A DNA stretch of 56,679 nucleotides, filler included, from Sphacelaria rigidula (lineage: Eukaryota), in NCBI GenBank assembly GCA_964200075.2. It is 7 parts of 7 records of this genome, joined end to end, with 100 filler letters (N's around TTAATTAATTAA, not from the genome) between each part and the next. Parts side by side here need not be neighbours in the genome. Positions count along the whole stretch, not along the records: positions 24,337 to 32,347 come from CAXNAA020012649.1; 6 more parts are not named here. The stretch is one strand, 5' to 3'. A model generated the notes under the pieces. The model worked only from the letters and a program-made list of their open reading frames with translations, did not search any database and had not been told where the DNA came from. A program made the translations under genes and the position numbers. Positions 644 to 54,100 of this stretch are shown here, one piece after another (position 1 is the first letter of the stretch; each line of letters begins with the position of its first letter).

Positions 644-1924
644 AGCTGTTTAGTGACAGGGTCAGAAATAATTCGGAACAGTATTTTGCAGGCCATATAC
701 CGGCCTACGTTCGGTGTTTGTGTATTGAAACTTTGTGTGGGGCGTGGCTAGGGCATAATCAACGAAACAAAGTGGATGAGGTCGTTTATTTTATTTTATT
801 CATTGGTTTAAGGCGATAAAGTCTGGTGAAAACCATTTTTTCACGACAACGCCTGAACCTCTCTCCCCCCCAAAACAAAATGAAGGTCCATTTATTTTTT
901 ATTTTTTGCCTACATCTGTGATCCTCCATGCTGAGTTTCAAATTACAATTCTGAAAATTGAACTAAAAAAATGAGATAAGGCACGAAAGCAGTGTTCATT
1001 TCTCCTCAAAACCGCCCCAAAAACCCGAAGAAAATGAAAAAAAAATGGGAAAAGCTGTGCTTACAAGCTTCATTATGCACTAGCGGTTCTCCCTACGAGA
1101 TTTCATAGCATAACTCTCAAAAACTGACACGCAATATCCAGGTTTAGCTAATCTAGCGCATCTGCTCGTAATATACTGATTTTAGTATGGAAACTCATGT
1201 GCGCCATATCTCGGGATAGATCACGAATTAGGTAAAGGTGAGGATATCTATCGTCTCCCCGTGCTCCAGGGACTGTCCACATCAAAATTCGTCATCCGCT
1301 GAATGCATCGATCGGGGGTTCCATAGAGAGTTCAGTATGGACGCTATCTCCCTGAGGTATACCGTAGGAATTACCAGACATGGGATTTAATCAACAAGAA
1401 AATATGGGCCCAAGATTTTGAGTAGATGGGCACCTTCCCCTTGGTTAGACAACTAATACAATATGCGGATCATGGCCCAACTCGTCCGTGTCGACGAGAT
1501 ATTGCTTTGAGAGCTTAAACCCGTGTCTAGGCTGGCCCAGCTCGTATGGAGCTTGCGGGCTTTGGTGTAAACTGCAGCACAATCGTGTTAGCCATAGGAA
1601 GACGCTCATGGGCAAGCAGAAAGACTACTCCGCGAGCAATATCCAAACACTGCTGTGCACTGTCCATTCGTGAACAAGCTAAGCTGTTATCGTTTGACCT
1701 TGCTCCAGTGCCTATGCGATCATCAAATGTTCATCATACTGTACATTCAAATTAAGTAGTGTACTACCACACTAAAGTCAAGTAGTAGTTTACTACTACA
1801 CTAAGTTCAAGTGATAAGCACAGACCTGCCACCCGGCGCCCAACCTCCCCGAGCCCTCTCTTTCACGATTTTTCCAACGTTTGGGGGTTATGTTCCTTGA
1901 AAAGTAAAAATGGTGTACGCCTGG

Positions 1925-2080
1925 CTCGCCCTAATATTTTTTCCGCGACGAGCAATGACTCGAGTGCTCGCCCTATTATTTTTTTCCACAACGAGCAACG
2001 ACTCGAGTACTCGCCCTACTTTTACGGCCAACTAGCATCTCAACGAGTGTGAGTGCCACGAGTCACACTCGTGTTCGTAC
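1925..2080. repeat. Partial copy of the left arm of the 2690-3052 foldback element
   Basis: Shares the ~40-bp subrepeat TTTTTCCACGACGAGCAATGACTCGAGTGCTCGCCCTA and CAACGAGTG..GTGCCACGAGTCACACTCGTG with 2690-2870. Confidence 0.7.
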
Positions 2081-4475: not shown

Positions 4476-7400
4476 CCCCCCCTCAGTCCTAGGGTTGAAA
4501 AACCCTGGGACTGAACGTGGTTCACACGATGGATCGCCGCGTTACCATGTCCCTCTTCCCGAGTACTCGGCGTCTTGGTGTAACCGTCGATCTTGAAAAT
4601 CGTTCTGCTGGGTTATACCGCATAGGGCATTTCAACACCGCGCAAGAACGATTCTATCCCGCCCAGGGGTGGGGTCCTTTATCTTGTTGACCGCTCTGCC
4701 GGGTTAGACCACGTAGGGCATTTCAACACCATACAGAAACGATCCCATCCAGTCCGGAGAGTCCTTAATCTTGTTGATCGCTCTGTCGGGTTAGACCACG
4801 TAAGGAATTTAAACACCGTACAGAAACGATCCCATCCAGTCCTTGATCTTGTTGACCGCTCTGCCGGGTTAGACCACGTAGGGAATTCAAACACCGTACA
4901 GAAACGATCCCATCCAATCCGGAGAAGTCCCTGATCTTATTGACCGCTCTGGGCTGTCCGTAAACCGTTTGCGGATCTTGGTACATCGGGGAATCTACCG
5001 CGCAATTGAGCCCCTCTCTGCTCGAGATGGTGTATCGGATGAACGGGGCCTGGTCTGCGGTTGATATAATTGCCACAAGACATGAAACACGTCCAACTGT
5101 AACTCAGTGAAACTGTCCAAATCCTCTCCTCTGAAAGCCAGTGTGGTTCAGCTCCGTCGTGAAACAACCGTTGATGTTCTCACACTCACGACGATCCTGG
5201 GCTCAGCACTGCTTTCCCATCCGTCAGAGTATATAGTAGAGGTGTGGACGTGATGTCCTCAGCCAACCTTAAATGTGCCCCCCCAAGCTAGCTAACAGAC
5301 CTCGCCTGGACTTGAATGCTGCAGTTGTTCTGGGTGCACATGAAATTTCTCCACGTTGGCCGCGAACACCGTTCGCTCTTGTACTCTATGCACCTGCATT
5401 TTGACCTCAAGATTGAGACCTGGTATCACCCCCTGCTGCACCGTCCCCGGCCCAGTCTACAAGTCATGTACAAATTTGGCCGGTACATCTTCGTTCAGAA
5501 GGGAGCTGTCGAACTCTTTGAGTAGCATCATATCTTATACCTCTTCCCTACGCCGGTGGCGTTGGGTTAACAGCTCATGAAAGTCCTTCAATGTTTGTCG
5601 CTGTTGCTCTACCGTGTTATTCAACAGTAGGGATTCTGCTTCAGGTGACACAGAGTCGACTTGGGTGCGAGGCTCGCGCTCAAAAGCAGCATTAATCGCG
5701 TTTGAGCTATGCGACAGTGACTGGTCGGAAGTAGTATGATGAATTCATACCGCAGGATACACATACTCGTCCCCCCATTATAGATACGGCGCACATAGCT
5801 CGGCTAAAACTAACTCCCCCCCAGCGTCACTCTAAAGGAAATAGGGCGTTTCGAGCGTCAAGAACAGTTCCAGCAGACCATTAACTACGTGCTCAGTAAC
5901 CTTGGGCTGCTGGTGAAAGAGCAAAGAGAACTTGGTGGCTCGATCCATAACAACAATTAAGTACTTATTACCAGAAGTAAAAGTCTGCTTTATGTCCGAT
6001 ATGTCCATCTACATCATCTCCCAGAACTAAAAGCAGCGGACGGGTCGCACCATTATGGTGCGACTATTAGTACGTTTGCGTCGGCGACATCCACAAGACA
6101 GCACGTGTATGCGAGTATCGGCGAAAAGACCGGGACACTCATAGCGTGCGTTGACCACTACAGTCGTTTTCATCACTCCGGCGTACCCATGCGTAGTGTG
6201 CACCAACGCGAGCAGCCCAGGCCCTAGACTGCGTGGAATAGCCAACTTACTTGGTGTCCAACTTACCTGGCGCCCTAGGTGAGGTATACCATAGGAGATC
6301 ATCATTTTGGAACGTAAGCTTTCTGCCTCTTACATGTACCTTCGTCCTTTTCTCCAACATGAACCTTTCTCTAATGAGCTCAAGCCGGGAGTCCCGCTCT
6401 TGCAGCAAAACTAGTCGCGGCTTCTTCATCAGAATCGCTCTCGCCTGCTCGAGAACGGTCTGAGGTCTACCTTTACCTGGTATCCATGGCTCCTCAGGTG
6501 GAGCCTCCCCACCACCAGGGTCTTGGTCTGACTCCCGCTCTGCCTCTTGCACCGACGAACGAGTTACAGTGGCTCCCCAAACCTCTGGTAACTCTGCTTC
6601 GTCACGAGGCCACATCGTAGCGAGCGTGCTCAAATCCTCGTCCTCACCCTGGATATGAGTCAGGCTAAACAAACCTTCCGCTTCCACTTGATAGAACCGC
6701 CTTCAGCATCCACGGGTGAACGAAATTTGCCATAATCTATGGCATGGCGTTGTTATTTACCGACGTGATGTCTCGTAACAGTCAAGAGCAGTCGCAACTT
6801 TCACGAATTCATCTCTTTCCAGCTCGACTGCTTCTTCCTATCCACCTGCGTCCGCTCCATGGGGTCTGGATTCCTCGCGCCTTGGTTTCCCCTTCGTCAA
6901 CTGAGAACGAAATAATATGGGCATCGGATTCTCGGAAGTGTGAATCGCCTCCCCCTGTCCTGTCGGCACCAGAAAAATAAACACCTGTCCGCCCTAATCG
7001 CTAACCCAACGTGGGGCAGGCGACGATGTACGTTTTCACTCGCTGCTTCCACGCTCACAGTTGTCCTTCCCTCCGACGATCAGCTTTCAAGGCGACCACA
7101 TAAGTCCGTCTCTTCCGATACGGTGCGCCCACCTACACGGCTGAGACTGAGGCCTGCTCAGTGAGACCCCAACTCCGCTCAACACGGAGCAACGAGCTGG
7201 TTCCCACCAGGAGAGCGCACCATCACAACAAAACTCTCCAAGATCAGCGTTGTTACAGAGGTTGGTGAGAGGAATGACTCGACCAACTTTTTTGACGAAA
7301 CTGGCTGATGCTGACTCCGGCTCGACCCATTCGGATGGTGCAACCCGACTTGTATACCCTACCAACACTTGTTGTTGTACTTCTTCCACAAGGTTGTGGA

Positions 7401-9442: not shown

Positions 9443-9884
9443 TTAATCATCACTGTCATCATCTTCATCGCTGTCATCGCTGTCATCGCTGTCACCGCTG
9501 TCACCGCTGTCATCGCTGTCATCGCTGTCATCATCTTCATCACTGTCATCATCATCACTGCCATCATCGTTGTCACCATCTTTTTTACCATCGTCATCAT
9601 TGTCGTCACCATCTTTTTTACGGTCGTCATCATCTTCGTCACCATCTTTTTTACCATCGTTATCATCTTCGTCCCCATCGTCATCCTTTTCATCATCACC
9701 ACCGTCGTCATCACCATGATCATCGCCATCACCATCACGACCGTCATCATCGTCCTCCCCTCCATCACTGCCATCATCTCCATGACTGTTAACACTCGCT
9801 CTACCAAAGCTGCTATCATAACCAGCCGATGTGGCAGTTGACGAATCACATGATCGGTCCCACATTGTCAACATGGAGTCTGAC
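9443..9884 (-). CDS. Terminal exon encoding a Ser/Asp-rich acidic tail
   Basis: Acceptor TATTTCCAG|G (AG at 9886-9885); frame (G)SDSMLTMWDRSCDSS...DDSDEDDDSDD-TAA; phase 2 matches the upstream exon 10373-10494. Confidence 0.7.
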
Positions 9885-20120: not shown

Positions 20121-23100
20121 CTAGTTCGTCACTGGCGGTGTTGCCGTCCCGCCGGACTGCGCTAGCTGGTGGAGTTCTCTCCGTGACAACTCTTCCCAGT
20201 CCCCGTCGTCGTATCGCACTCTCCAGAAACGCTTGCCATACTCGAACACTTGTTCTCTCTGCTTGACTCCGCCGAAATCGTTCCAGAACGTAAAACCTAC
20301 GGGGAACAAGTTCAGGGCGTCACTGCGTGACAGGGGGGTCTGGCGGATGCTCGGGCGAGATGGCGTACTTGGTGTCTTGGCCGGGTGGTGGAGACACCAC
20401 AGTGCGTGGAAGTCATCCAGTTGCAGAGGTGTGAAGCTTTCCAGGACGTTGCTCTCCGGAAGCCAATCTGACGTCGCCCCCTCCTGCGTCCTTCCTTGAT
20501 ACTCCCAACCTGCACCTTCCCCCGATTTGCACTTGCGGCGGTTCACTAGGGTAGGGAGGCGGAATGAGGAGTTAGTCGACGACGATATCTTGAAGTCTGA
20601 TCCCCATACCTGTCGTGCTGCAGCTTCCTGCCCCTGCCATCTCGATACGTAGAGCTTTCACTCTCCCTCACCATCACCAGATCTCCCTCCGTGACCGACA
20701 CGCCTGCTGCTGGTCTCGAGATGGCTGCATTGTCCTTCTCCCGCGACGCTGCTTTTGCCCCCTGCCTTTTGTCCATCGCCATCCTCACCTCACGGAGGTT
20801 CTGTCTGCTTTGTTCAACGAAGGCATCTAGTCCCTTGCTCAGTTCTGCTTCTTGTGAGAGGGGCACGAGCAAGTCTAGCGATATGCGCGGTTTGCGGCCG
20901 AACAGCAGCTCAAAAGAGGACATGTTGGAGGGGAGAGATGTGTCGGGCAATGTGCGCTTGATCCGGAGGGCGGGGGAGACATACTCATCCCACCTCTAGG
21001 GCCACAGCCTACATAGTTCCGATAGCATGTCCAACAGCCATCCCCCGAGTCGCTTGACCGCTCCCTGACCGCGTGGGTGGTCCGACGGCCCAAAGGCGAT
21101 GTCTGCTTTCAACCACCTGCAGAGATACGTGACGAGGTCGGCCCTGAACTCTTTCCCCTGTCGCAGCGGATCATTTGTGGGACACCGAAAGTTAGGCATA
21201 GCTCTGCTAGGATGCGTGCGATCTCGTCCGCTTGCTTTGATGGCAGAGGAAATCCGAACAGGAATCGGGAGGCGCGGTCAAGTACCAGCAGAATGTATTT
21301 GTTGCAAGAGTGCGACATCACATCAATGGTTAGTAAGTCGATTTCCAACTCGGTCCATGGATGTCAAGTGCGCCGCGGTCTCATCGCCATTTGGCGACTG
21401 TTTGCATTCTTGCGTCGTCTACAGCTGCACGATAGCACGCACTGTCTGGTCTAACGTGTCATGGTAGGCCAGTGGAAGCGATCGTGTATCAAAGCAAGGG
21501 TAGCGCCTACTCCAACATGTCCGTGGAGTGTATGCACGAGTGCCAACAGGTCAGCTACTATCGGCTTCGGCACATCTAGCAGCCTCTTATCGTTGGCTGC
21601 TCGCCACCACAGTATACCTTGATCGTCTACTTTGTAATCTGACCGTCTCTCACTCACCGCCTCTGATGTTTCACCGCCTGCAAGATCTGACTGCACCTAT
21701 TTGAGAAAGGGATATTTCTGTTGGTGGTGCCGGAAATTGCTCACGTTGGTGAGTACCCTTAGTGCACGCTCGATCGCCGTTGTGTCCGTCAAGTCCAGAT
21801 CCGTTAACCCTGTAGGCGTTTCTCCCCCGGCTAGGAGCACTTCACCCACTTCTACCCTTTCACCGGTTGTCGGGGGAATGGTCGGTGTCGGCACCTGCAG
21901 CGGTACTTCAATCGGCGTTGGCTCTGCGGGCGGATTCGGGTCGACTACGTGAGGGGTGAAGGGCAGAGGTGTTGTATACGCAGCATCGGGGGGCTGCAGG
22001 CGTACTGACGGTCTGCGAACACGAGTTGAACGGCGCACGCGTTGGTTATCGTTGATGACTGCGCATTCTGAGAAAGGGGGTAGACTCAGGGTGGCGATGT
22101 CCGGTGGATTGTTGGCATTCGACGATGAGTGCATACCTGTGTCTGCACTCACTGACGTTCCCGCTCCTTCTGGTTGTAGTTACGACAGTCACTGACGTAC
22201 CCACGAGTTTTGGTCCCTGTGGGCCTTCAAATTCTGTGGGCGAGCCCGACGTGAAATCGTCCGGAAAGGAGTCATCAATGTCGGGCTGCGGCTCACTCGC
22301 TTGTGGGAATCGGGGCAATGCATCTGGTAGCACATGTTCGGACCCTTCCCGCCACTGGAGATCGATGTCATACTTCATTAGCCGCAAAGCCCACCTGTGT
22401 AACTTGGGGCAGAGATCGCGGCTACGGAACAACCATATGAGTGCCGAACAGTCCGTAATCAACGTGAACCTTCTTCCAGCCAAGTATGGTCTATAGTGTT
22501 GAACAGCCCACAAGACAGCCATGCACTCTCGTGCTGTGGGTGCTCTGTGCGAGTCGTTACGAGATAATCGATGGCTGCCAAATGATACGATACGTGTTTC
22601 GCACCCCACCGGCTGCAGCAGCACCGCCCCAGCCCCTACCTCGCTCGCGTCCGTCTGCAGTATAAACGAATTGTTGGGATCGGGGAAGGCTAGTACCTTC
22701 CGCGAGGACAAGGCCGCTTTGAGGCCTTGAAACGCCTCTTTCTGCTCGGTATTCCACGGTATGGACAGCGTCCGTGCACGCTTGGATGTGAAATCTTTGT
22801 TGCGGAGCATATCGGTTAGAGGGGGCGGCTACTAGGCTGTATTTATCAACAAACTGGCGCAGGTACCCTGTGAGGCCGAGGAAAGTACGTAGTTCCTCGA
22901 CGGTGGATGGTCGGGGCATCTCGGCGATGGCGGCGAGCTTAGATGGCGCGGGTTGAAGGCCGCTGCTATCTACCAGTATGCCCAGAAACTCCTGCGACGC
23001 CGATGCAAAAATGCACTTGGCGAAGTTCACCGAGAATCCCGCGATCAACAAGCGCTTTAACACGATCACGAGTAGGGCTAGATGTTCGTCCCAGGATGTG

Positions 23101-23900
23101 GTCGCGATAAGAATATCGTCAAGCTAAGTGAACACTCCATTCAACTGTCCTACCGTTCCTTTTACCCGACGGGTGAACGCGGCGGGTAGGACTGTCAGAC
23201 CAAAGTCTGCTCGTGTAAACTCGTATAAGAGGCCATCGGCATCTCGGAACGCTGTTTGGAAGCGATCTTTCTCCGCGATGACGATTTGGTGGAAACTGGA
23301 GGCCAGACGGAGTTGGGTGAAGTAACGCTTACCTGTGAGACCGTCGAAAATGGATTGCATATCCCCGAGACCCCCGCTGTCCGACACCAAGAGTTTGTTC
23401 AGTACACGCCAATCAATGCACAAGCGCAGGGTGCCGTCTTTTTTCTTTACGCATAGGCATTGGGCTGCCCAGGGGGAGATTGAGGTTCGAATGATACCGC
23501 GATCAAGAAGCTTGTGTATCTCTTCGCGGATCATGTGACGTTCTTCCGGGGAAAATCGACGTTGCTTAGCTGCGAATGGCGTACATGACTCGTTAGTTAG
23601 GGGGGGTTCGAGCTCACCGTTGATACAAGCGTGAACCCGCTTAAGGTATGTGGGGAACAAGCCAGCTTGGATAAAGCTCAGCAGTGTGTCCACCAGCTCT
23701 CTCGTTTCCGCTGCTCCAAGCTGGCCCATGTTGGCGTCCTCTACATTAACCTTGGGATTTGGTTGGATCGAGCAACTACTGTCCGGGTGTGAGGCGCGAG
23801 GTGAGGGGTCCACGGGGGGGTCTGTCGTAGACGGATGGGGGTCAAACAGTCAGTGAAACCTGGCGGGATCGTGTACGTTTAGTGCTATCATACGCGCGAT
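20121..23900 (-). mobile_element. pol: Ty3/Gypsy element B pol (RT-RNase H-integrase-chromo/Tudor-like tail), frameshifted
   Basis: RT: SPWAAQCLCVKKKDGTLRLCIDWRVLN and GVFT*LDDILIAT (stop at the first position of the xxDD motif). RNase H: FILQTDASEVGAGAVLLQ, ECMAVLWAV, ITDCSAL. Integrase: HTLHGHVGV, EIDLLTID, IRCDRG, HPRGQGAVKRL, FELLFGRKPR. Confidence 0.93.
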
Positions 23901-24236: not shown

Positions 24237-24336
24237 NNNNNNNNNNNNNNNNNNNNNNNNNNNNNNNNNNNNNNNNNNNNTTAATTAATTAANNNNNNNN
24301 NNNNNNNNNNNNNNNNNNNNNNNNNNNNNNNNNNNN
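24237..24336. other. Artificial contig linker
   Basis: N44-TTAATTAATTAA-N44. Confidence 0.98.
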
Positions 24337-27300
24337 TTTCTGTGGTGTGGTGTGGTGTGGTGTGGTGTGGTGTGGTGTGGTGTGGTGTGGTGTGGTGTGG
24401 TGTGGCGTGGTGTGGTGTGCTGAGCTGTGCTGCGCTGGGCTGTGCTGTGGTGTGGTGTGGTGTGGTGTGGTGTGGTGTGCTTCGCTGTGCTGTGCTGTAC
24501 AGTACAGTACTGTATTGTACTGTACTGTACTGTACTGTACCGTAAGTGTATAATCGTGAAAGGACCCCGTGGTCGGAGGACCGCATGGGAGTTGGAACAT
24601 CCCCATGGTTTGGTCTAGGGATAGGGTAAGCGTTGGGGTTATGGTCAAGGGCGGTGTACCTGCAGGGACTCGCCCAGTTGGTCTCGGAAAACATCCATCC
24701 TGAGGTGTTTCGTACTACGGGGCGGTCCCGTGAGCACGCGGTTTTCTCACGCACTACACTGTACTGTGGTGTGGTGTGGTGTGGTGTGACGTGGTGTGAC
24801 GTGGTTTGGTGTGGTGTGTTGTGAAATGGTGTGGTGTGGTTTGGTGTGGTTTGGTGTGCTGTGCTGTGCTGTACTGTACTGCATCGTACCGTACGGTACT
24901 GTAGTGTACTGTAATGTTCTGTACTGTACTGTACTGTACTGTACTGTACTGTTCTGTACTGTACTATCCTGTAATGTACTGTGCTCTGTTGCTGTAATGC
25001 GAGAGCCGAGCTGTGCTGTCCTGTGCTGTGCTATGCTGTGGTGTGTTGTGGTGTGCTGTGGTGTGCTGTGGTGTGCTGTGCTGTGGTGTGCTGTGCTGTG
25101 CTCTGCTGTGTTGTCCTGTGCTGTGCTGTGCTGTGCTATGCTTTGCTGTTGTGTGGTGTGGTGTGGTGTGGTGTGGTGTTGTGTGAGGTGGTGGGGTGTG
25201 CTGTGGTGTGCTGTCCTATCCAGTACTGCACATCGCTGAACTGTACTGTACTGTACTGTACTGTACTGTACTGTAGTGTACTGTGCTTTCCTTTACTGTA
25301 CTGTACTGTGCTGTGCTGTATGTTTGTAATGCGTGAGTGGACCGCGTGCTCGACGGACCGGATGGGAATTGGAACGTCCCCATGATTTGGGTTAGGGATA
25401 GGGTTAGCGTTGGGGTTATGGTCAAGGGCGGGGTACCTGCGGGGACTGGCCCAGTTGGTTTCGCGAAACATTCATCATGATGTATTTTGAACTACGGCGC
25501 GGTCCTCTGAGGACGCGATCTTCTCACGCATGACAGCGCACTGTGGTGCGCTGTGGTGTGGTGTGCTGTACTGTGGTGTGCTGTGCTGAAGTGTGCTCTG
25601 CCGTGCTGTGCCTTGCTGTGGTGTGCTGTGGTGTGCCATGCTGTGCCGGGCTGTGGTGTGGTGTGGTGTGGTGTGGTGTGGTGTGGTGTGCTGTGCTGTG
25701 CTTTGGTGTGCTGTGCTGTGCTTTGGTGTGCTGTGGTGTGCTGTGGTGTACTGTGGTGTGGTGTGGTGTGGTGTGGTGTGGTGTGCTGTCCTGTCCTGTA
25801 CTGCACAGTACGGATCTGTGCTGTACTGTACTTTACTGTACTGTACTGTGCTGTATGTTTGTAATGCGTGAGAAGACCGCGTGCTCGAAGGACCGCATGG
25901 GAACTGGAACATCCCCATGATTTGGGTGAGGGATAGGGTCAGCGTTGGGGTTATGGTCATAGGCGGGGTACCTGCAAGGACTGGCCCAGTTGGTTTCGCG
26001 GAACATTCATCCTGAAGTATTTTGAACTACGGCGCGGTCGTCTGAGGACGCGATCTTCTCACGCATGACAGCGCACTGTGGTGCGCTGTGGTGTGGTGTG
26101 GTGTGCTGTGTTGTGCGGTGCTGTGGTGTGCTGTGGTGTGCTGTGCTGTGCTTTGGTGTACTGTGCTGTGCTGTCGTGTGCTGTGCTGTCGTGTGCTGTG
26201 CTGTGCTGCGGTGTGGTGTGGTGTGGTGTGCTGTGCTGTGATGTGGTGTGCTGTGCTGTGCTGTGGTGTGGTGTGGTGTGGTGTGGTGTGGTGTGGTGTG
26301 GTGTGGTGTGGTGTGGTGTGGTGTGGTGTGGTGTGGTGTGGTGTGGTGTGGTGTGGTGTGGTGTGGTGTGGTGTGGTGTGGTGTGGTGTGGTGTGGTGTG
26401 GTGTGGTGTGGTGTGGTGTGGTTTGGTGTGGTGTGGTGTTCCTTGCTGTGGTGTGCTGTGGTGTGCTGTGTTGTGCTGTGCTGAGCTGTGGTGTGCTGTG
26501 GTGTGGTGTGGTGTGGTGTGGTGTGATGTGGTGTGCTGTGCTGTGGTGTGCTGTGCTGTGCTGTGGTGTGCTGTGCTGTGGTGTGCGGTGCTGTGATGTG
26601 GTGTGCTGTGGTGTGCTGTGCTGTGGTGTACTGTGCTGTGCTGTGCTGTGCTGTGCTGTCGTGTGCTGTGTTGTGCTGCGGTGTGGTGTGGTGTGCTGTG
26701 CTGTGCTGTTATGTGGTGTGCTGTGCTCTGCTGTGCTGGGGTGTGGTGTGGTGTGGTGTGGTGTGGTGTTCCTTGCTGTGGTGTGCTGTGGTGTGCTTTG
26801 TTGTACTGTGCTGGGCTGTGCTGAGCTGTGCTGTGCTGTGGTGTGCGGTGGTGTGCTGTGGTGTGCTGTGCTGTCCTGTCCTGTACTGCACCGTACTGAA
26901 CTGTACTGTACTGTACTCTACTGTACTGTACTGTACTGTGCTGTGCTGTATGTTTGTAATGCGTGAGAGGACCGCGTGCTCGAAGAACCGCATGGGAATT
27001 GGAACATCCCCATGATTTGGCTAAGGGATAGGTAGCGTTGGGGTTATGGTCAAGGTCGGGGTACCTGCGGGGAATGGCACAAGGGGTTTCGCGAAACATT
27101 CATCCTGAAGTATTTTGAACTACGGCGCGGTCGTCTGAGGACGCGATCTTCTCACGCATGACAGCGCACTGTGGTGTGGTGTGGTGTGGTGTGGTGTGCT
27201 GTACTGTGGTGTGCCGTGCTGTGCTGTGGTGTGCCGTGCTGTGCTGTGCCGTGCTGTGCTGTGCTGTGCTGTGCCGTGCTGTGCTATGCTGTGCTGTGCT

Positions 27301-29970
27301 GTGCTGTGCTGTGCTGTACTGTGTGCTGTGTTGTGCGGTGCTGCGCTGTGCTTCGCTGTGCTTTGCTGTGCTGTGCTGTGCTGTGCTGTGCTGTGCTATG
27401 CTGTGCTATTCTGTGCTGTCCTGTACTGCACTGTACTGTACTGTACTGTACTGTACTGTACTGTACTGTACTTAATCGTAATTCTGTGATGTGTGGAAGG
27501 ACCGCGTGCTCAGAGGACGACATCAGAATTGGAACATCACAATGGTTTGGGTTAGGGATAGGGTTAGCGATGGGGTTATGGTCAAGGGCGTGGTACCTGC
27601 AGGGACTGGCCCCGTTGGTTTATCAAAACATTCATCCTGAGGTATTTCGAACTACGGCGCGGTCCTCTGAGCACGCGGTCTTCTCACGCATTACACTGCA
27701 CTCTGCATTGGTGTGCTGTGGTGTGCTGTACTGTACTGCACTGTGCTGTGCTGTGCTGTCCTCTGATGCACCGTACTGTACTGTGCTGTACTGTACTTTA
27801 CTGTAGTATTGTAATGCGTGGAAGGACCGCGTGCTCAGAGGACCGCATCGGTTATGGAACATCCCCATGGTTTGGGTGAGGGATAGGGTTAGCGTTGGGG
27901 TTATGGTCAAGGGCGGGTTACCTGCGAGGACTGGCCCAGTTGGTTTCGCAAAACATTCATCCTGAGGTATTTCGAACTACGGCGCGGTCCTCTGAGCACG
28001 CGATCTTCTCACGCATGACAGTGCACTGTGCTGTGGTGTAGTGTGCTGTGGTGTGGTGTGCTCTTCTGTGCTGTCCTGCACTGCACCGTGCTGTACTGTA
28101 CTGTACTGTACTGTACCGTACGTTACTGTAATTTTGTGATGCGTGGAAGGACCGCGTGCTCAGAGGACCACATCGGAATTGGAACACCCCCATTATATGG
28201 GTTAGGGATAGGGTGAGCGTTGGGGTTATGGTCAAGGGCGGGGTACCTGCAGGGACTGGACCAGTTGGTTTCGGAAAACATCCATCCTGAGGTATTTCGA
28301 ACTACGGCGCGGTCCTCTGAGAATGCGGTCTTCTCACGCATTACACTGCACTCTTCTGTGGTGTGCTGTGGTGTGCTGTGCTGTACTGCACTGTGCAGTG
28401 CTGTGCTGTTCTCTGATGCACCGTACTGTACTGTACGTACTGTACTGTACCGTACTTTACTGTAATTTTGTGATGCGTGGAAGGACCGCGTGCTCAGAGG
28501 ACCAAATCGGATATGGAACATCCCTATGGTTTGGGTTAGGGATTGGGTTAGCGTTGGGGTTATGGTCAAGGGCGGGTTACCTGCAGGGACTGGCCCAGTT
28601 GATTTCGGAAAACATTCATCCTCAGGTATTTCGAACTACGGCGCGGTCCTCTGAGAACGCGATCTTTTCACGCATGACAGTGCACTGTGGTGTGGTGTGT
28701 CATGGTGTGCTGTCGTGTGCTGTGCTCTGCTGTGCTATGCTGTGCTGTCCTGTACTGCACCGTACTGTACAGTACTGTACTGTACTGTACTGTACTGTAC
28801 TGTACTGTGCTGTATGTTTGTAATGCGTGAAAAGACCACGTGCTCAAAGGACCGCATCGGAATTGGAACATCCCCATGAATTGGGTTGGGGATAGGGTTG
28901 GCGTTGTTGTTATGGTCGAGGGCGTGGTACCTGCAGGGACTTGCCCAGTTGGTTTCGCAAAATATTTATCCTGAAGTATTTTGAACTACGGCGCGGTCCT
29001 CTGAGCACGCGATCTTCTCACGCAATACACTGTACTGTGGTGGGGTGTGGTTTGGAGCGGTTTGGTGTGCTGTCGTGAGCTGTGCTATGGTGTGGTATGG
29101 TGTGTTGTGGTGTGGTGTGGTGTGGTGTGTTGTGGAATGGTGTGGTGTGTTGTGGTGTGATGTGCTGTGCTGTCCTGTACTGCACCGTACTGTACAGTAC
29201 TGTACTCTACTGTAATGTACTGTACTGTACTGTACTGTACTGTACTGTACTGTACTGTGCTGTACTGTACTGTACTGTACTGTACTGTACTGTACTGTAC
29301 TGTACTGTACTTTACTGTGCTGTGCTGTGCTGTATCCTTTCAATGCGTGAGAAGACCACGTGCTCAAAGGACCGTATCGGAATTGGAACATCCCCATGAT
29401 TTGGGTTGGGAATAGGGTTAGCGTTGGGCTTATGATCGAGGGCGTGGTACCTGCAGGGACCGGCCCAGTTGGTTTCGCAAAACAATCATCCTGGGGTATT
29501 TCGAACTACGGCGCGGTCCTCTGAGCACGCGATCTTCTCACGCATTACACTGTACTGTGGTGGGGTGTGATGTGGTGTGGTGTGCTGTGGTGTGCTGTGC
29601 TGTGCTATGGTGTGGTGTGGTGTGGTGTGGTCTGGTGTGGTCTGGTGTGTTGTGGAATGGTGTGGTGTGGTGTGGTGTGATATTCTGTGCTGTCCTGTCC
29701 TGTACTGTATCGTACTGTCTGTACTGTAATGTACTGTACTGTACTTTACCGTACTGTGCTGTATGGTTGTAATGCGTGAGCTGAGCTGTGCTGTGCTGTG
29801 CTGTGCTGTGCTGTGCTGTGCTGTACTGCATCGTACCGTACTGAATTGTTCTGTACTGTACTGTACTGTACTGAACCGTACTGTACTGTACTGTATTGTT
29901 GTAATGCGTGAGCTGTGCTGTGCTGTCCTGTGCTGTGCTGTGCTGTGCTGTGCTGTGCTGTGCTGTGCTA
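24337..29970 (+). repeat. Composite satellite: ten ~211-bp TIR-bounded units separated by (GTGTG)n/(GTGCT)n/(GTACT)n microsatellite
   Basis: Units at ~24548-24758, 25325-25535, 25860-26070, 26955-27163, 27485-27695, 27810-28020, 28135-28345, 28469-28679, 28819-29029 and 29339-29549; ~37-bp TIR TGTAATGCGTGAGAAGACCGCGTGCTCAGAGGACCGC / GCGGTCCTCTGAGCACGCG(G/A)TCTTCTCACGCAT(T/G)ACA. Confidence 0.95.
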
Positions 29971-31444
29971 TTCGAAAACGGAATTCGGGTTTGCTCACCG
30001 GGGAGTAGACGCTCCAACATCTCCACTATTACCACCGACATGCTCGTGAAGTGGGCACCTGAATCCAACACCGCTTTGACCGAAATCGCTCCCCGCACCC
30101 GTTGATCGGGCAAATATAACTCGGCAGGGACATAATTGTCTTGGTCCTCGACCGGCACCTGCTCCTCCGACTGATTGTTCGTAATCCCCACTTGACGCCA
30201 CGGCTGCGCGCGCGGCGCAGGCAGAGACACCCCCGCTGGGGTCACCGACACCGCCGGCGGGTACGAAGCCCCGCCCGCAGAACCAAATTTCAGCTGTACC
30301 CCGGCCGGCGCAGCAGCGGATTCAAATTTCAGGTGAAACCCGGCCGGCTCCGCAGCCGGCGTCTCGCCCTGCTCTGCTGTCGGCGGCGCCGGCACCGAGC
30401 CCGACACTAGAGAGGTTGGTCCCACCTGCACCGCCCGTTGCGGAGCAGCAGCCCCTGCGGCTGGACCGACACCAGAACCGGACCCCTGCTGACGCCGCTG
30501 CCCCTGCTGCTGCTGCTGCTGCTGGGAAGTTGACTGTTCACCTCCACCGCTGGATGATCCACCGCTGCCGCCAACACGACTACCTGGTCTTTTCCCTTTG
30601 TGAGGGTGCGCGGCACTCGTCTTCCTAGACTCCCCCTCAGAGGGCGTTCGGCAATTTCGTGCGATGTGACCGGCCTGGCCCCACTGAAAACAAGTAAAAT
30701 TGGAGCCTGCAGATTTTGGCCCGCGGTTACGCGAGCTCAAAGACTGCGGCGCTGAAGTGGATGATTTTCCGAACACTTCGACCCGCCGCCATGCCTGAGC
30801 TTCGGCCACCACCGTTTCCATGACTAAATACGGGTCCGACTCCCAATTTGTCTCCTGCTGTAACTGTACAAGCACGGCCTGCTTAATTCCGCCGGGGCCA
30901 GACCCTCCACCATCGCTTCAGTAACCACCGCAGCGGGCCCTGAGCGAAATTTTCCATCGGACGAACGATAAATCATCTCTACGTTGGGATTTTCAGCAAA
31001 ATAAGTTGCCAACTTATCCATTATGGGCTCCACCTTCTCACGCATAGTCCTCCCCTTGTGGTTCATTGCGACAGCCTTCGCCACTGCCGCGGACGCCTGA
31101 GTAAGCTCTACCTCCGCGCCTGCCGCATGCCCTGCATGCTTCTTTATGGCTGTGGCCAACTGCAGCGGCGTGATGGTATGCTTTTCATGGAACCGCCTCG
31201 CGAAGACGCGCTGTAAGGGTGTTGGTACTAATTGCGCCATCGAAACCACCTGATGCCTCACCGCACCCCCTGCATTCGCATGCTCCACCCTCCGTTTGTA
31301 TTCCATGTATTTCGTGTAAAACGATCTAGAGGCACCCTCAGAATACAAACTCCCGTAACTGGGCGGCCGCAACTCTTCCCTTAGAACGACTGGGGTCACG
31401 GTTGTTTCCGCTGGCTCTATTGTCGGTATCTCAGTATTCGACAT
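29971..31444 (-). mobile_element. gag: Ty3/Gypsy-type element C gag and aspartic protease N-half (one frameshift near 30875), truncated by the array
   Basis: Gag ORF 31444-30824; degenerate zinc knuckle CFQWGQAGHIARNC; protease active site AVLDSGAHFTSMS; homology stops abruptly at 29971. Confidence 0.85.
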
Positions 31445-31754
31445 TTTCGAGCCGTAAATCGAAGATTTCTCAAAACCTTCTCGAACTTCAGTTCACCTGC
31501 TTACTTCGCCGCTCCAACACAGCCCTGGGGTCGTATAAACACCCACTGTGCGCAGCTCCAGCAAGTCTCCAGTCTGGATCAATCACGGGCCAGCCGCCTT
31601 TGCAGCTGCCTCAGCTTGAAGCCTCCTCACGCGTCCGTGAAGCCCTGTGCCCGAAGCTAATCACAGTTTTCCAGACTCTCCCTGCCAAAATGTTTAGCAG
31701 TGTCAAACGATAGCATCTACTAGCACGCCCAAGCACTAGCACTAATATCGATAT

Positions 31755-51167: not shown

Positions 51168-54100
51168 CTTTTTTGGAGAAATCATTTTTTTGTTGGGACA
51201 CGCACAAGGGACACACAAGAAAAACGACAACAAAAAAGAACGTTAGCATGAAGGACATAAGTAATCCCCTCCCCGTCTCGAAAGGGATGCGTGGTCAATG
51301 GTCAAACGACTAAGGCAAGCAACAAATGAGTACGCCCCTCCCCCCCCAAAAAAACAAACTGCTCCGTCTCGAAAGAGATGCGTAGTTAATGGTCAAACGA
51401 CTAAGGGGAGCAATAGATGAGAACGCCCTCCCCCCCCAAATAAAAATCAAAATAAAAGAGCAGGCGCAGGGGCAGGTAGTTGGGCTGTTATTCCCTTTGG
51501 TGAAGGTCAGGTTATAGCAGATCTTCATCTCGGGTTATTATACTCATTAGCTATTTCTTCTTTAGGTGTTTATGATATCTTAATTTCAGGTTGGTTAAGT
51601 AATTCAAAATATGCGTTTTTAGGTGGAGCAAGAAGGAAGGAGATTATTGTATTTTTTTTCACGCTGTTTTTGCACAACCCCTGTGTATCAGGCACTGGGG
51701 CTTGTAAAATAACCAAACTACACGGTGTTTTGAGAGCTCGCTATGCTGACCAGTACGTCCTCTTATGGCTTACCCAGAACGCGGGAGGATATTCCTGAGG
51801 TCGAGGCCGCTTCTAGCCCATGAAAAGCAGCCGGATCAGGAAGGGAGCTTGTCTATCATTTTAGTCGGTTAAACTCTTCTCTCGTTCGAGTAACGCTTCT
51901 AAAGGCACCGGGGCCAACAGTATGATCAATTTCTAGATATATGCGAGGGGACTCGCTGGCTGTGTCTACAATACTGTTCTGACTTCGGTTGACAATGCGG
52001 GAGGCGTGGTAGACACGGGTAGCTTTAGGCGCAACAATCCAGGAGCACCGCTAGAGAGAAGAAACAAGCGGAAAACTTGCTACAAGCACGCTTGGTTTGA
52101 TGCCATCGTAGTCTCCGTATCCACCGTATACGCCCTCGACTTTAATGGACTGCGACTATTCCGGCTTGCGGATTGTATCCGGCAGTATCATGTATCATGG
52201 CCCCTCACACGTGCCGTGGCTGTGGATGCATACCATGGATATGGATCATGACGCCAAACAAAATACTGGGGACGGACAGTCGTATGTGCGCAGCACATAA
52301 CCACCGACGAGGGAGGGAGTACTCCAAGAATATATACTTCTCTGTCTCATAAGTAAAGTTACCTAAATTTGCACGGGCCCTTAACGATGTCCGATCGTTT
52401 TTTTTTAATGAAATTGATGGTGTTTTTTGGATCAAGAAAATGTGTTTAAAATATGCAGCTCGTGCTTGGACCATGCAGCCGCGCGGCCGAGAAAAACTAG
52501 GTCGGTCCAAAACCGGCCATTTCTCGCTCGTTTTTCCACGAAAGCATGACAGACCCGGGAACTCGAAAAATCGCGAAAAATGGGCCAAAAATTGTGAAAA
52601 TCGCGAAACCACCATTGATTATGGACATGTCCGTGATATCAACCTACGCACGCCCCATCCAACATTTTGTTAGCATGTAATTGCTAGTGCTCGGCGTGAA
52701 AACGTCTAAAATCGGTCAATGATGGGGGGAAAATGGATCTAAAAGGATCAAAATGGGGTATATTTCGACATAGTTTTAGTGATGAAAACAAGTTTTTATT
52801 TTCGTTTTTTTGTCATCAGCTTCGTCTGCGCTTTGGCTTTCAAACGTACCCAACCACAACATCGTCGCCACCACTGGCATACCTAAACAATGTATCGCCG
52901 TTAGGTACCTTTACTAATGGGGCAGAGGAAAAATCGATCTTGATTCGACCATTTCAATCGAAGAATTTTTCCGTCTCAATAGTTATGCTACGATAGGGGA
53001 GGGGGGCGGGGTTGTTCCACAGTATTGGGGCGTCATAGGCGTGTTAGACGACATATCACACTCGCGGTGCGCTTGTATTTGGGTGAAAACGGTGCCAAGC
53101 AGAATAAATGAGTGTCATTTATCGGTTTTGACCACGTTCGAACAACCATTTCTATTTTCAACTTTCAACGACAGTTGAAGGTGGAATTTCGTGGAAGAAA
53201 TTGCTCAAAATACCACCCCCCTCCTCTCCAATTGGGCCATAACTCCATATTGTAGACTACATAGAAAAGAGCGACCAAGGAAGAGAATCTCGCAGTCCAA
53301 GAGACATTGGAGAATATTACCGTAGATAACGGTCCACGCGACCCTAGGGTGATCCCGAAACTTTTCTCCAACAGCTCATCATTTGAGACTCAAAAGAATA
53401 TCACCAAGAGGTGGCAGTCAGGCATGGGGGGGGGGGGGGGGTTTTCGCACATATGTGTTTTTTGGGGCCGCCCCACGGGTTATCTTTTCCTGATGCTTTA
53501 TGCAAGTCCTTCCCACGAGACTGTGATTTCAACCCTGGTGCGTTTGACTACTCCTTCATGTACCCCTTTTTCTGTGGTGGGGGTGCACTCATGATCTTGC
53601 ATGCCATAGTCATAAAAACATTGACTTCACATCCCTAAAAAGTCGGGACGGAGCACGCCGGGTTTTCGCCGGACCAGGCTCGCAATCATCACCAAGCGCG
53701 TAGCGCCGTCATGTCTTGGGCGAGTCCCATAAAAGATGAGCGGCATCCCCGCTCAGATTGTTCGGCCCGAAGCTTACTGATTATCTTGCATTTGGATGAC
53801 AGCCTCCAACGAGTTGCTTAATTTTCTGGTATCGCCACTTCCGGAGACAGCCACGGCTTATCCACTGCTTCATGGGCGTCTCACCCTATAAACACCGCAT
53901 GGTGAGATCATCCCAGTTACGCGAGGTTCGGACTCCCCAGTCCGCACAAAATGCCCTAGCTCACCCACCATCATGGTTACCGCAAAAAAACGCGAGAGAA
54001 AACCCCCCGGCAACCTGCCATTGCAAGAGTAGGTCATCTGTTGAATCAACATCAGTTTCACTTGAAAAAATTATGCATGATCCACATGAACTACCCTCGC

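What the first reader, a model, noticed from the sequence alone, without database searches (positions are those of the whole stretch)
24337..29970. Head-to-tail array of ten 211-bp hairpin (TIR) units embedded in pentamer microsatellite
Seen: ten co-oriented units of almost fixed length, each with ~37-bp inverted ends (TGTAATGCGTG...CACGCATTACA) that would fold into a long stem, separated by 115-885 bp low-complexity spacers. Known: TGT...ACA termini are typical of Ginger-type DNA transposons and LTR ends, and MITE-derived satellites exist. Inference: this is either a microsatellite-targeting MITE, a MITE-plus-microsatellite monomer amplified in tandem (unequal exchange or rolling circle), or a structural or small-RNA locus. 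Uniform orientation favours tandem amplification over independent insertions. I do not recognise it as a described family.
Basis: partly seen in the sequence, partly recalled or inferred. Interest (0 to 1): 0.8.

Follow-up and report, generated by a model that had tools for sequence, protein, structure and literature searches.

The report
Jumping-DNA copy amplified into local satellite
One copy of a common small jumping-DNA element landed in a simple five-letter repeat and was then duplicated head to tail about a dozen times, giving a small, decaying satellite array that is real but a mostly ordinary product of repeat turnover.

Summary
In detail: ten co-oriented units of 209-211 bp with 37-bp inverted ends lie in a (C/G)TGT(G/A) pentamer microsatellite. 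The unit is a member of a high-copy dispersed MITE family of this genome (324 exact left ends; TGTAA..TTACA ends; 4-5 bp target duplications in 48 of 69 copies). None of 82 dispersed copies sits in microsatellite, so the family does not target it. The array copies form one clade (100/99), neighbours are most alike, junctions are homologous, and 7 of 9 periods are multiples of 5. This fits one insertion with a 4-bp duplication, followed by in-register tandem duplication. The stems are eroding (55 one-sided changes, 0 compensatory), which argues against a selected hairpin RNA. An eleventh unit ends another contig, probably the array's left edge; the right edge abuts a truncated LTR-retrotransposon. 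A second, unrelated core forms a 40-copy array with the same pentamer spacers. The ends fit Ginger2/TDD hallmarks, but no autonomous partner was found. Verdict: a transposon-derived mini-satellite, a modest variant of a known kind.

The parts
24237..24336 (.). Assembly linker; the array's contig (G000:C12649) starts at 24337
24337..29970 (+). Whole array as assembled in the window: 10 full monomers and 3 stub monomers in (C/G)TGT(G/A) pentamer microsatellite; open at the left
24337..24547 (+). Leading pentamer tract (GTGTG/CTGTG, then CTGTA)
24548..24758 (+). MITE unit A1, the most diverged; 5' end altered; 6 of 211 differences from a sister unit at the end of contig C21173
24993..25005 (+). 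Left-end stub (first 13 bp of the TIR, body missing)
25325..25535 (+). MITE unit A2 (subclade A2-A4)
25860..26070 (+). MITE unit A3
26955..27163 (+). MITE unit A4 (209 bp)
27485..27695 (+). MITE unit A5
27810..28020 (+). MITE unit A6
28135..28345 (+). MITE unit A7; its right junction with the microsatellite is bridged by contigs of three sequencing runs
28469..28679 (+). MITE unit A8
28819..29029 (+). MITE unit A9 (pairs with A10)
29339..29549 (+). MITE unit A10 (5' TGT lost)
29768..29780 (+). Left-end stub
29900..29912 (+). Left-end stub
29973..31492 (-). 5' part of a multicopy LTR retrotransposon (gag, weak zinc knuckle, start of the aspartic protease), cut off at the array's right edge

Best explanation
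The array is a small transposon-derived satellite with no sign of function. Step 1 (shown): the 211-bp unit belongs to an abundant non-autonomous cut-and-paste element with TGTAA..TTACA ends and 37-bp TIRs, which inserts at varied sites with 4-5 bp target duplications. Step 2 (inferred): one copy inserted once into a (C/G)TGT(G/A) pentamer microsatellite, duplicating 4 bp. Step 3 (single origin shown, mechanism inferred): the pentamer tracts on both sides acted as direct repeats, so misaligned exchange or strand slippage in pentamer register duplicated element plus spacer again and again. Local blocks of related neighbours resulted, while slippage changed spacer length in steps of 5 and deletions left stubs. 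Step 4 (shown): the copies now drift and the stems erode. Both outer edges are breakpoints without a target duplication: a truncated LTR element on the right and, probably, a repeat patchwork on contig C21173 on the left.
For: Dispersed family: 1639 candidates, 40 scored, 30 of them on other contigs; 324 exact matches to a 40-bp left end, control 0. Target duplications of 4-5 bp in 48 of 69 full-length TGT..ACA dispersed copies (31 of 5 bp, 17 of 4 bp); mismatched-pair control 11 of 1482. Single origin: the 10 units form one side of a 100/100 branch against 44 dispersed copies; with the C21173 unit, 11 units form a 100/99 branch nested among 82 dispersed copies. Seven diagnostic substitutions are in 10 of 10 units, and six of them are in at most 2 of 44 dispersed copies. 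Neighbours are more alike than shuffled orders (88.3%, p = 0.012). Flanks are homologous from unit to unit. 7 of 9 periods are multiples of 5 and 6 of 9 spacers are 5n+4 (binomial p = 3e-4), as 211 + 4 + 5n predicts. The array-type right junction occurs 8 times on this contig and once elsewhere, in a copy without microsatellite. A spacer transition motif occurs 3 times, all here. A second, unrelated core is arrayed with the same pentamers (40 of 40 matches on 5 contigs; 20 of 37 periods are 3 mod 5).
Against: No unit keeps a literal target duplication (0 of 10), so the 4-bp duplication rests on length arithmetic. The nine periods are not independent, so the p-value is generous. The data cannot separate unequal exchange from slippage or from reinsertion of an excised circle. 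No sequencing contig spans two units, so unit order and long spacer lengths rest on the assembly. The link to C21173 is inferred from sequence likeness, not from a join. The dispersed sample is biased toward near-consensus copies because it was found by exact patterns and best scores.
Confidence: 0.83

Rival explanations
1. Microsatellite-targeting MITE: each unit is an independent insertion into the pentamer tract, as in plant SaTar and Ac-mMITE clusters.
For: Such clusters exist and often lack target duplications (PMC5907723; PMC8449440). The units differ by 7-21%.
Against: 82 dispersed copies carry 0-4 pentamers in 120 bp of flank, against 12-19 for the 10 array units. Nine other pentamer tracts examined hold no copy. 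All units are co-oriented, form one clade and share junctions. The array alleles were found on only one other contig, in the same microsatellite context.
Confidence: 0.03
2. Same single origin, but amplified by a circle: a monomer or block was excised as extrachromosomal DNA, copied by rolling circle and reinserted, or was moved as a block.
For: Both edges are abrupt breakpoints: 19 of 19 other copies of the LTR element continue past 29973, and the C21173 edge starts in mid-spacer. Orientation is uniform.
Against: One rolling-circle burst would give equally related copies with equal spacers. Instead there are nested neighbour groups of different ages (97% for A0/A1, about 92% within A2-A4, 79-84% for A1 against the rest). 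The edges show no target duplication.
Confidence: 0.08
3. The array is kept as a hairpin-RNA, small-RNA or structural (centromere-like) locus.
For: Units still fold well (z = -5.65 for A6). Telomere-like TTAGGG repeats lie inside the element. Small RNAs map to many transposons in Ectocarpus (PMC12477816).
Against: Stem positions show 55 one-sided, 1 two-sided non-compensatory and 0 compensatory changes; stems mutate as fast as the interior (0.092 against 0.070 per site). Folding is weaker than in dispersed copies (-91 against -111 kcal/mol; z = -11.4 for one dispersed copy). No Rfam family reaches its threshold, and the weak miRNA hits fall on the microsatellite.
Confidence: 0.03
4. Assembly artefact: dispersed copies and microsatellite reads were stitched together.
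For: Fragmented assembly (27,214 contigs). The array begins at a contig end. No contig of the four runs laid spans two units.
Against: Units carry private alleles absent from dispersed copies. The unit 7/microsatellite junction is bridged with 0 differences and at least 31 letters on both sides in three runs from two samples (X1, X3, X4), one of which may be the assembly's source.
Confidence: 0.03

Closest known systems
Ginger2/TDD DNA transposons and their non-autonomous derivatives (PMC2836005; PMC10045372)
   Same: TGTNR termini (TGTAA), TIRs of tens of bp, 4 or 5 bp target duplications, short non-autonomous members (Ginger2-1N1_NV is 252 bp).
   Different: The TIR is 37 bp against about 45-300 bp. 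Target sites here are varied and rather GC-rich, not RTATAY. No transposase-coding partner was found, so membership is open.
DNA5-N1_Ec32 of Ectocarpus (PMC12477816, supplementary file 1)
   Same: Unclassified non-autonomous element with TGT..ACA ends and a 5-bp TSD, annotated 'possible Ginger?'.
   Different: 502 bp, TGTTG..CAACA ends, 9-bp imperfect TIR. It is a different family; its sequence was not seen.
Transposon-derived tandem arrays and satellites (hobo 16-mer, Xstir, miDNA4; reviewed in PMC12628747 and PMC9659126)
   Same: Tandem array descended from a mobile element and expanded by unequal exchange, with decay of the termini.
   Different: The monomer is a whole MITE plus host microsatellite, not an internal repeat of the MITE or a double insertion at one site. 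The flanking microsatellite supplies the homology and sets the register.
Microsatellite-associated MITE clusters: SaTar/Micron (PMC5907723), Ac-mMITE (PMC8449440)
   Same: Non-nested TIR elements in a row, separated by microsatellite.
   Different: Those are Mutator-type, target microsatellites genome-wide and build clusters by independent insertions. This family does not target microsatellites, and the array has one origin.

Membership tests
MITE (non-autonomous TIR transposon) | Short, non-coding, with terminal inverted repeats | tested here: met
   211 bp, 37-bp TIRs
MITE (non-autonomous TIR transposon) | High copy number, dispersed | tested here: met
   324 exact left ends on both strands across many contigs
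MITE (non-autonomous TIR transposon) | Target-site duplication | tested here: met
   48 of 69 dispersed copies; 0 of 10 array units keep a literal one
Ginger2/TDD | TGTNR termini | tested here: met
   TGTAA..TTACA; definition from PMC2836005
Ginger2/TDD | 4 or 5 bp TSD | tested here: met
   31 of 5 bp, 17 of 4 bp, 21 none, of 69; definition from PMC10045372
Ginger2/TDD | Reported preference for AT-rich RTATAY sites (shown for Nematostella elements) | tested here: not met
   38 TSDs listed are varied and mostly GC-rich
Ginger2/TDD | Autonomous partner with the same TIR encoding an H2C2-DDE Gypsy-like integrase | tested here: inconclusive
   13 of 13 and 30 of 76 TIR-variant loci were MITE copies or MITEs interrupted or truncated; 0 of the 30 best rve loci (of 150 scored, 1683 candidates) carry the TIR within 1.5 kb
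Ginger1 | 4-bp CCGG or CCGT/ACGG TSD | tested here: not met
   3 of 38 TSDs are CCGG or ACGG; most are 5 bp
Microsatellite-targeting MITEs (SaTar, Ac-mMITE) | Most family members flanked by microsatellite | tested here: not met
   0 of 82 dispersed copies
Microsatellite-targeting MITEs (SaTar, Ac-mMITE) | Clusters built by independent insertions; 9-10 bp Mutator TSD | tested here: not met
   Single clade with shared junctions; TSD 4-5 bp
Transposon-derived tandem array or satellite | Head-to-tail monomers homologous to a dispersed element | tested here: met
Transposon-derived tandem array or satellite | Common ancestry, neighbours most alike | tested here: met
Transposon-derived tandem array or satellite | Copy-number variation between individuals; heterochromatic location | not testable with these tools
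   needs long reads from several strains and chromatin data
Structured RNA or miRNA cluster | Compensatory changes that keep the stem | tested here: not met
   0 compensatory against 55 one-sided changes; no Rfam hit at threshold

The most novel reading that the evidence does not exclude
In this genome the (C/G)TGT(G/A) pentamer microsatellite works as a general satellite nucleator: whatever is trapped between two tracts is amplified in pentamer register. The MITE array (11 or more units) and an unrelated 40-copy array are two independent cases, and the MITE array is a snapshot of satellite birth with a known founder and a relic 4-bp target duplication. The founder family may also mark an undescribed Ginger-like transposon lineage in algae.
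Probability: 0.4. Interest if true: 0.45.

Novelty: new variant of a known kind. Interest (0 to 1): 0.27.

Why it matters
How a dispersed transposon becomes a satellite is usually argued from old arrays whose founder is lost. Here the founder family, the single insertion and the order of duplications can be read from 6 kb, and the route (host microsatellite as the misalignment substrate) differs from double insertion, internal-repeat expansion and microsatellite targeting. It also warns that MITE clusters in microsatellites need not mean targeting. The locus is small and shows no function, so the importance is modest.

Tried and rejected
Autonomous partner: TIR-variant patterns (13 of 13 were MITE copies; 30 of 76 loci read, none a long coding element), a lone TIR end followed up (the sequence beyond it matches, by eye, a repeat that also interrupts the MITE in L057, and no transposase frame was recognised), and the rve search all led nowhere. 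TIR patterns found 0 matches in metagenome and viral contigs. Rfam gave 25 matches, none at threshold. The reverse transcriptase and RNase H frames at 22046-23849 lie on another contig and are not evidence of a continuous element across the array. The idea that the array inserted cleanly into the LTR element was rejected: the probable left flank on C21173 does not match 19 intact copies. Run X6, guessed to be RNA, covers 8 of 30 bins thinly and is no evidence of transcription. The protein atlas did not fix the host lineage. Earlier scan notes held nothing. Literature searches listed no paper on this family or on a whole-MITE-plus-pentamer monomer; only listings and the passages named were seen, and the library omits most subscription papers and Repbase.
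Full report
Setting. The window is seven contigs of 8010-8012 bp joined by N linkers, from a 244-Mb assembly in 27,214 contigs. The array fills the first 5.6 kb of contig C12649 and starts at the contig end. The host is probably an alga: an 'algae metagenome' run holds 0.41 of the sampled words. That it is a brown alga is my inference from genome size, composition and repeat content, and no call shows it.

Observation. Ten co-oriented units of 209-211 bp were found, 79-93% alike pairwise, with 37-bp inverted ends. Spacers are 566, 324, 884, 321, 114, 114, 123, 139 and 309 bp. They have a fixed inner order: GTGTG/CTGTG pentamers after a unit, CTGTA pentamers before the next. Three 13-bp left-end stubs lie at 24993, 29768 and 29900. 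Contigs of four runs were laid on 27470-29050 only. Three runs cover 27, 28 and 24 of 30 bins, mostly at 99% or better, and each bridges the unit 7/microsatellite junction without differences; none spans two units, and one sample may be the assembly's source.

The unit. A search of the genome with unit 6 gave 1639 candidates; of 40 scored full-length matches, 30 lie on other contigs. A 40-bp left end matches exactly 324 times. Dispersed copies end TGTAA..TTACA, carry the motif GAGGACCGC twice in each TIR and several TTAGGG repeats inside. Of 82 full-length dispersed copies, 69 have intact TGT..ACA ends; 31 of these have 5-bp, 17 have 4-bp and 21 have no target duplication. In an earlier subset, mismatched flank pairs gave 11 of 1482. 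The unit is therefore a MITE. TGTNR ends and 4-5 bp duplications are the hallmarks of Ginger2/TDD (PMC2836005, passages; PMC10045372, passages). The target sites are not AT-rich and no coding partner was found, so I file it as Ginger-like and unclassified. The curated Ectocarpus library lists no Ginger superfamily but one similar unclassified element, DNA5-N1_Ec32 (PMC12477816: passages, section 5 part 1, and searches of five supplements held as text). My motifs were not in those files, but the consensus sequence files may not be among them.

How the array arose. Targeting fails: dispersed copies have 0-4 pentamers in 120 bp of flank, array units 12-19, and nine other pentamer tracts hold no copy. 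One origin is supported: the units form one branch (100/100 against 44 copies; 100/99 against 82 copies, bootstrap not fully settled). Subgroups are neighbours (A2-A4, A9-A10, A6/A8), and adjacent identity exceeds shuffled orders (p = 0.012). Seven of nine periods are multiples of five, as expected if the monomer is 211 bp plus a 4-bp duplication plus whole pentamers. The two exceptions are a stub-bearing spacer (777) and a one-base loss (334); one of the seven (530) results from offsetting two-base changes. No unit keeps a literal duplication, so this step is inferred. The simplest mechanism is misalignment between the pentamer tracts on either side of the first insertion, repeated over time. 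This follows the general two-stage model of satellite growth by unequal exchange (PMC12628747, passages and section 6 part 1; PMC9659126, passages). Slippage or a circular intermediate cannot be excluded.

Edges. An array-allele pattern hit only this contig and C21173. That contig ends in (GTACT)n, a unit with 6 differences from A1, and the same following spacer, so it is probably the left edge, making at least 11 units. On the right the array abuts position 29973 of a multicopy LTR retrotransposon (384 candidates). All 19 other copies read continue through the protease, and one shows protease-like and reverse-transcriptase domains beyond. The left flank is not the missing half, so the edges are rearrangement breakpoints, not a clean insertion.

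Function. TIR match is 29.5 of 37 in the array against 34.4 in 39 dispersed copies. Stem changes are 55 one-sided, 1 two-sided non-compensatory and 0 compensatory, and stems mutate no slower than the interior. The dispersed sample is biased to near-consensus copies, so the first comparison is inflated; the compensation count is not affected. Rfam gives nothing at threshold. Eight of ten units still have TGT..ACA ends, so occasional mobilisation is not excluded.

Generality. A second composite repeat, a 223-245 bp core without inverted ends and the same pentamers, fills three contigs and reaches two more (40 of 40 matches on 5 contigs). Twenty of its 37 periods are 3 mod 5, and it holds no MITE. 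This suggests that the microsatellite, not the transposon, drives the amplification.

Comparison. Plant SaTar and Ac-mMITE clusters look alike but arise by independent, targeted insertions of Mutator-type elements (PMC5907723 and PMC8449440, passages). Whole-element tandem arrays such as the hobo 16-mer are known (PMC5932611, search listing only; described in PMC12628747). My searches listed no description of this family or of this monomer type.

Verdict. Real, explained, and a modest variant of transposon-derived satellites. Interest 0.27.

Noticed in passing
L161-L163 (G000:C9048, C16565, C20902; also ends of C3125 and C2736): A second composite satellite: 223-245 bp core in two alternating variants, separated by the same CTGTG/GTGTG pentamers; 40 copies, none dispersed. 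Origin of the core unknown.
   Followed up: partly
L134:4540-4700 (G000:C21173): An exon similar to the N-terminus of casein kinase II alpha (E = 2.7e-8) lies about 1.2 kb upstream of the probable left edge, so the array may sit in an intron of this gene or of a fragment of it.
   Followed up: partly
L134:5008-5340: Another short inverted-repeat element (80-bp arms, 84% complementary) in the same flank.
   Followed up: no
dispersed copies, e.g. L157:1310-1538, L151:1497-1713: The MITE carries an internal run of telomere-like TTAGGG repeats whose number varies between copies; it is eroded in the array.
   Followed up: no
L194:1501-1544: A 44-bp copy made of the two ends only, with a 4-bp target duplication: the minimal ends may suffice for transposition.
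   Followed up: no
L024, L149, L023, L014: Dispersed copies are often nested in or close to other copies of the same family, hinting at local hopping or shared preferred regions.
   Followed up: no
L113, L119, L130: A different dispersed repeat carries an internal GTGTG tract at a fixed position, a possible source of pentamer tracts.
   Followed up: no
window 22046-23849: Frameshifted reverse transcriptase and RNase H frames of an LTR retrotransposon on the neighbouring, unrelated contig.
   Followed up: partly
window 1924-2018, 2692-2812, 4674-4951, 9447-9749, 51273-51445: Short tandem repeats of 43, 78, 9-33 and 91 bp on other contigs of the window.
   Followed up: no
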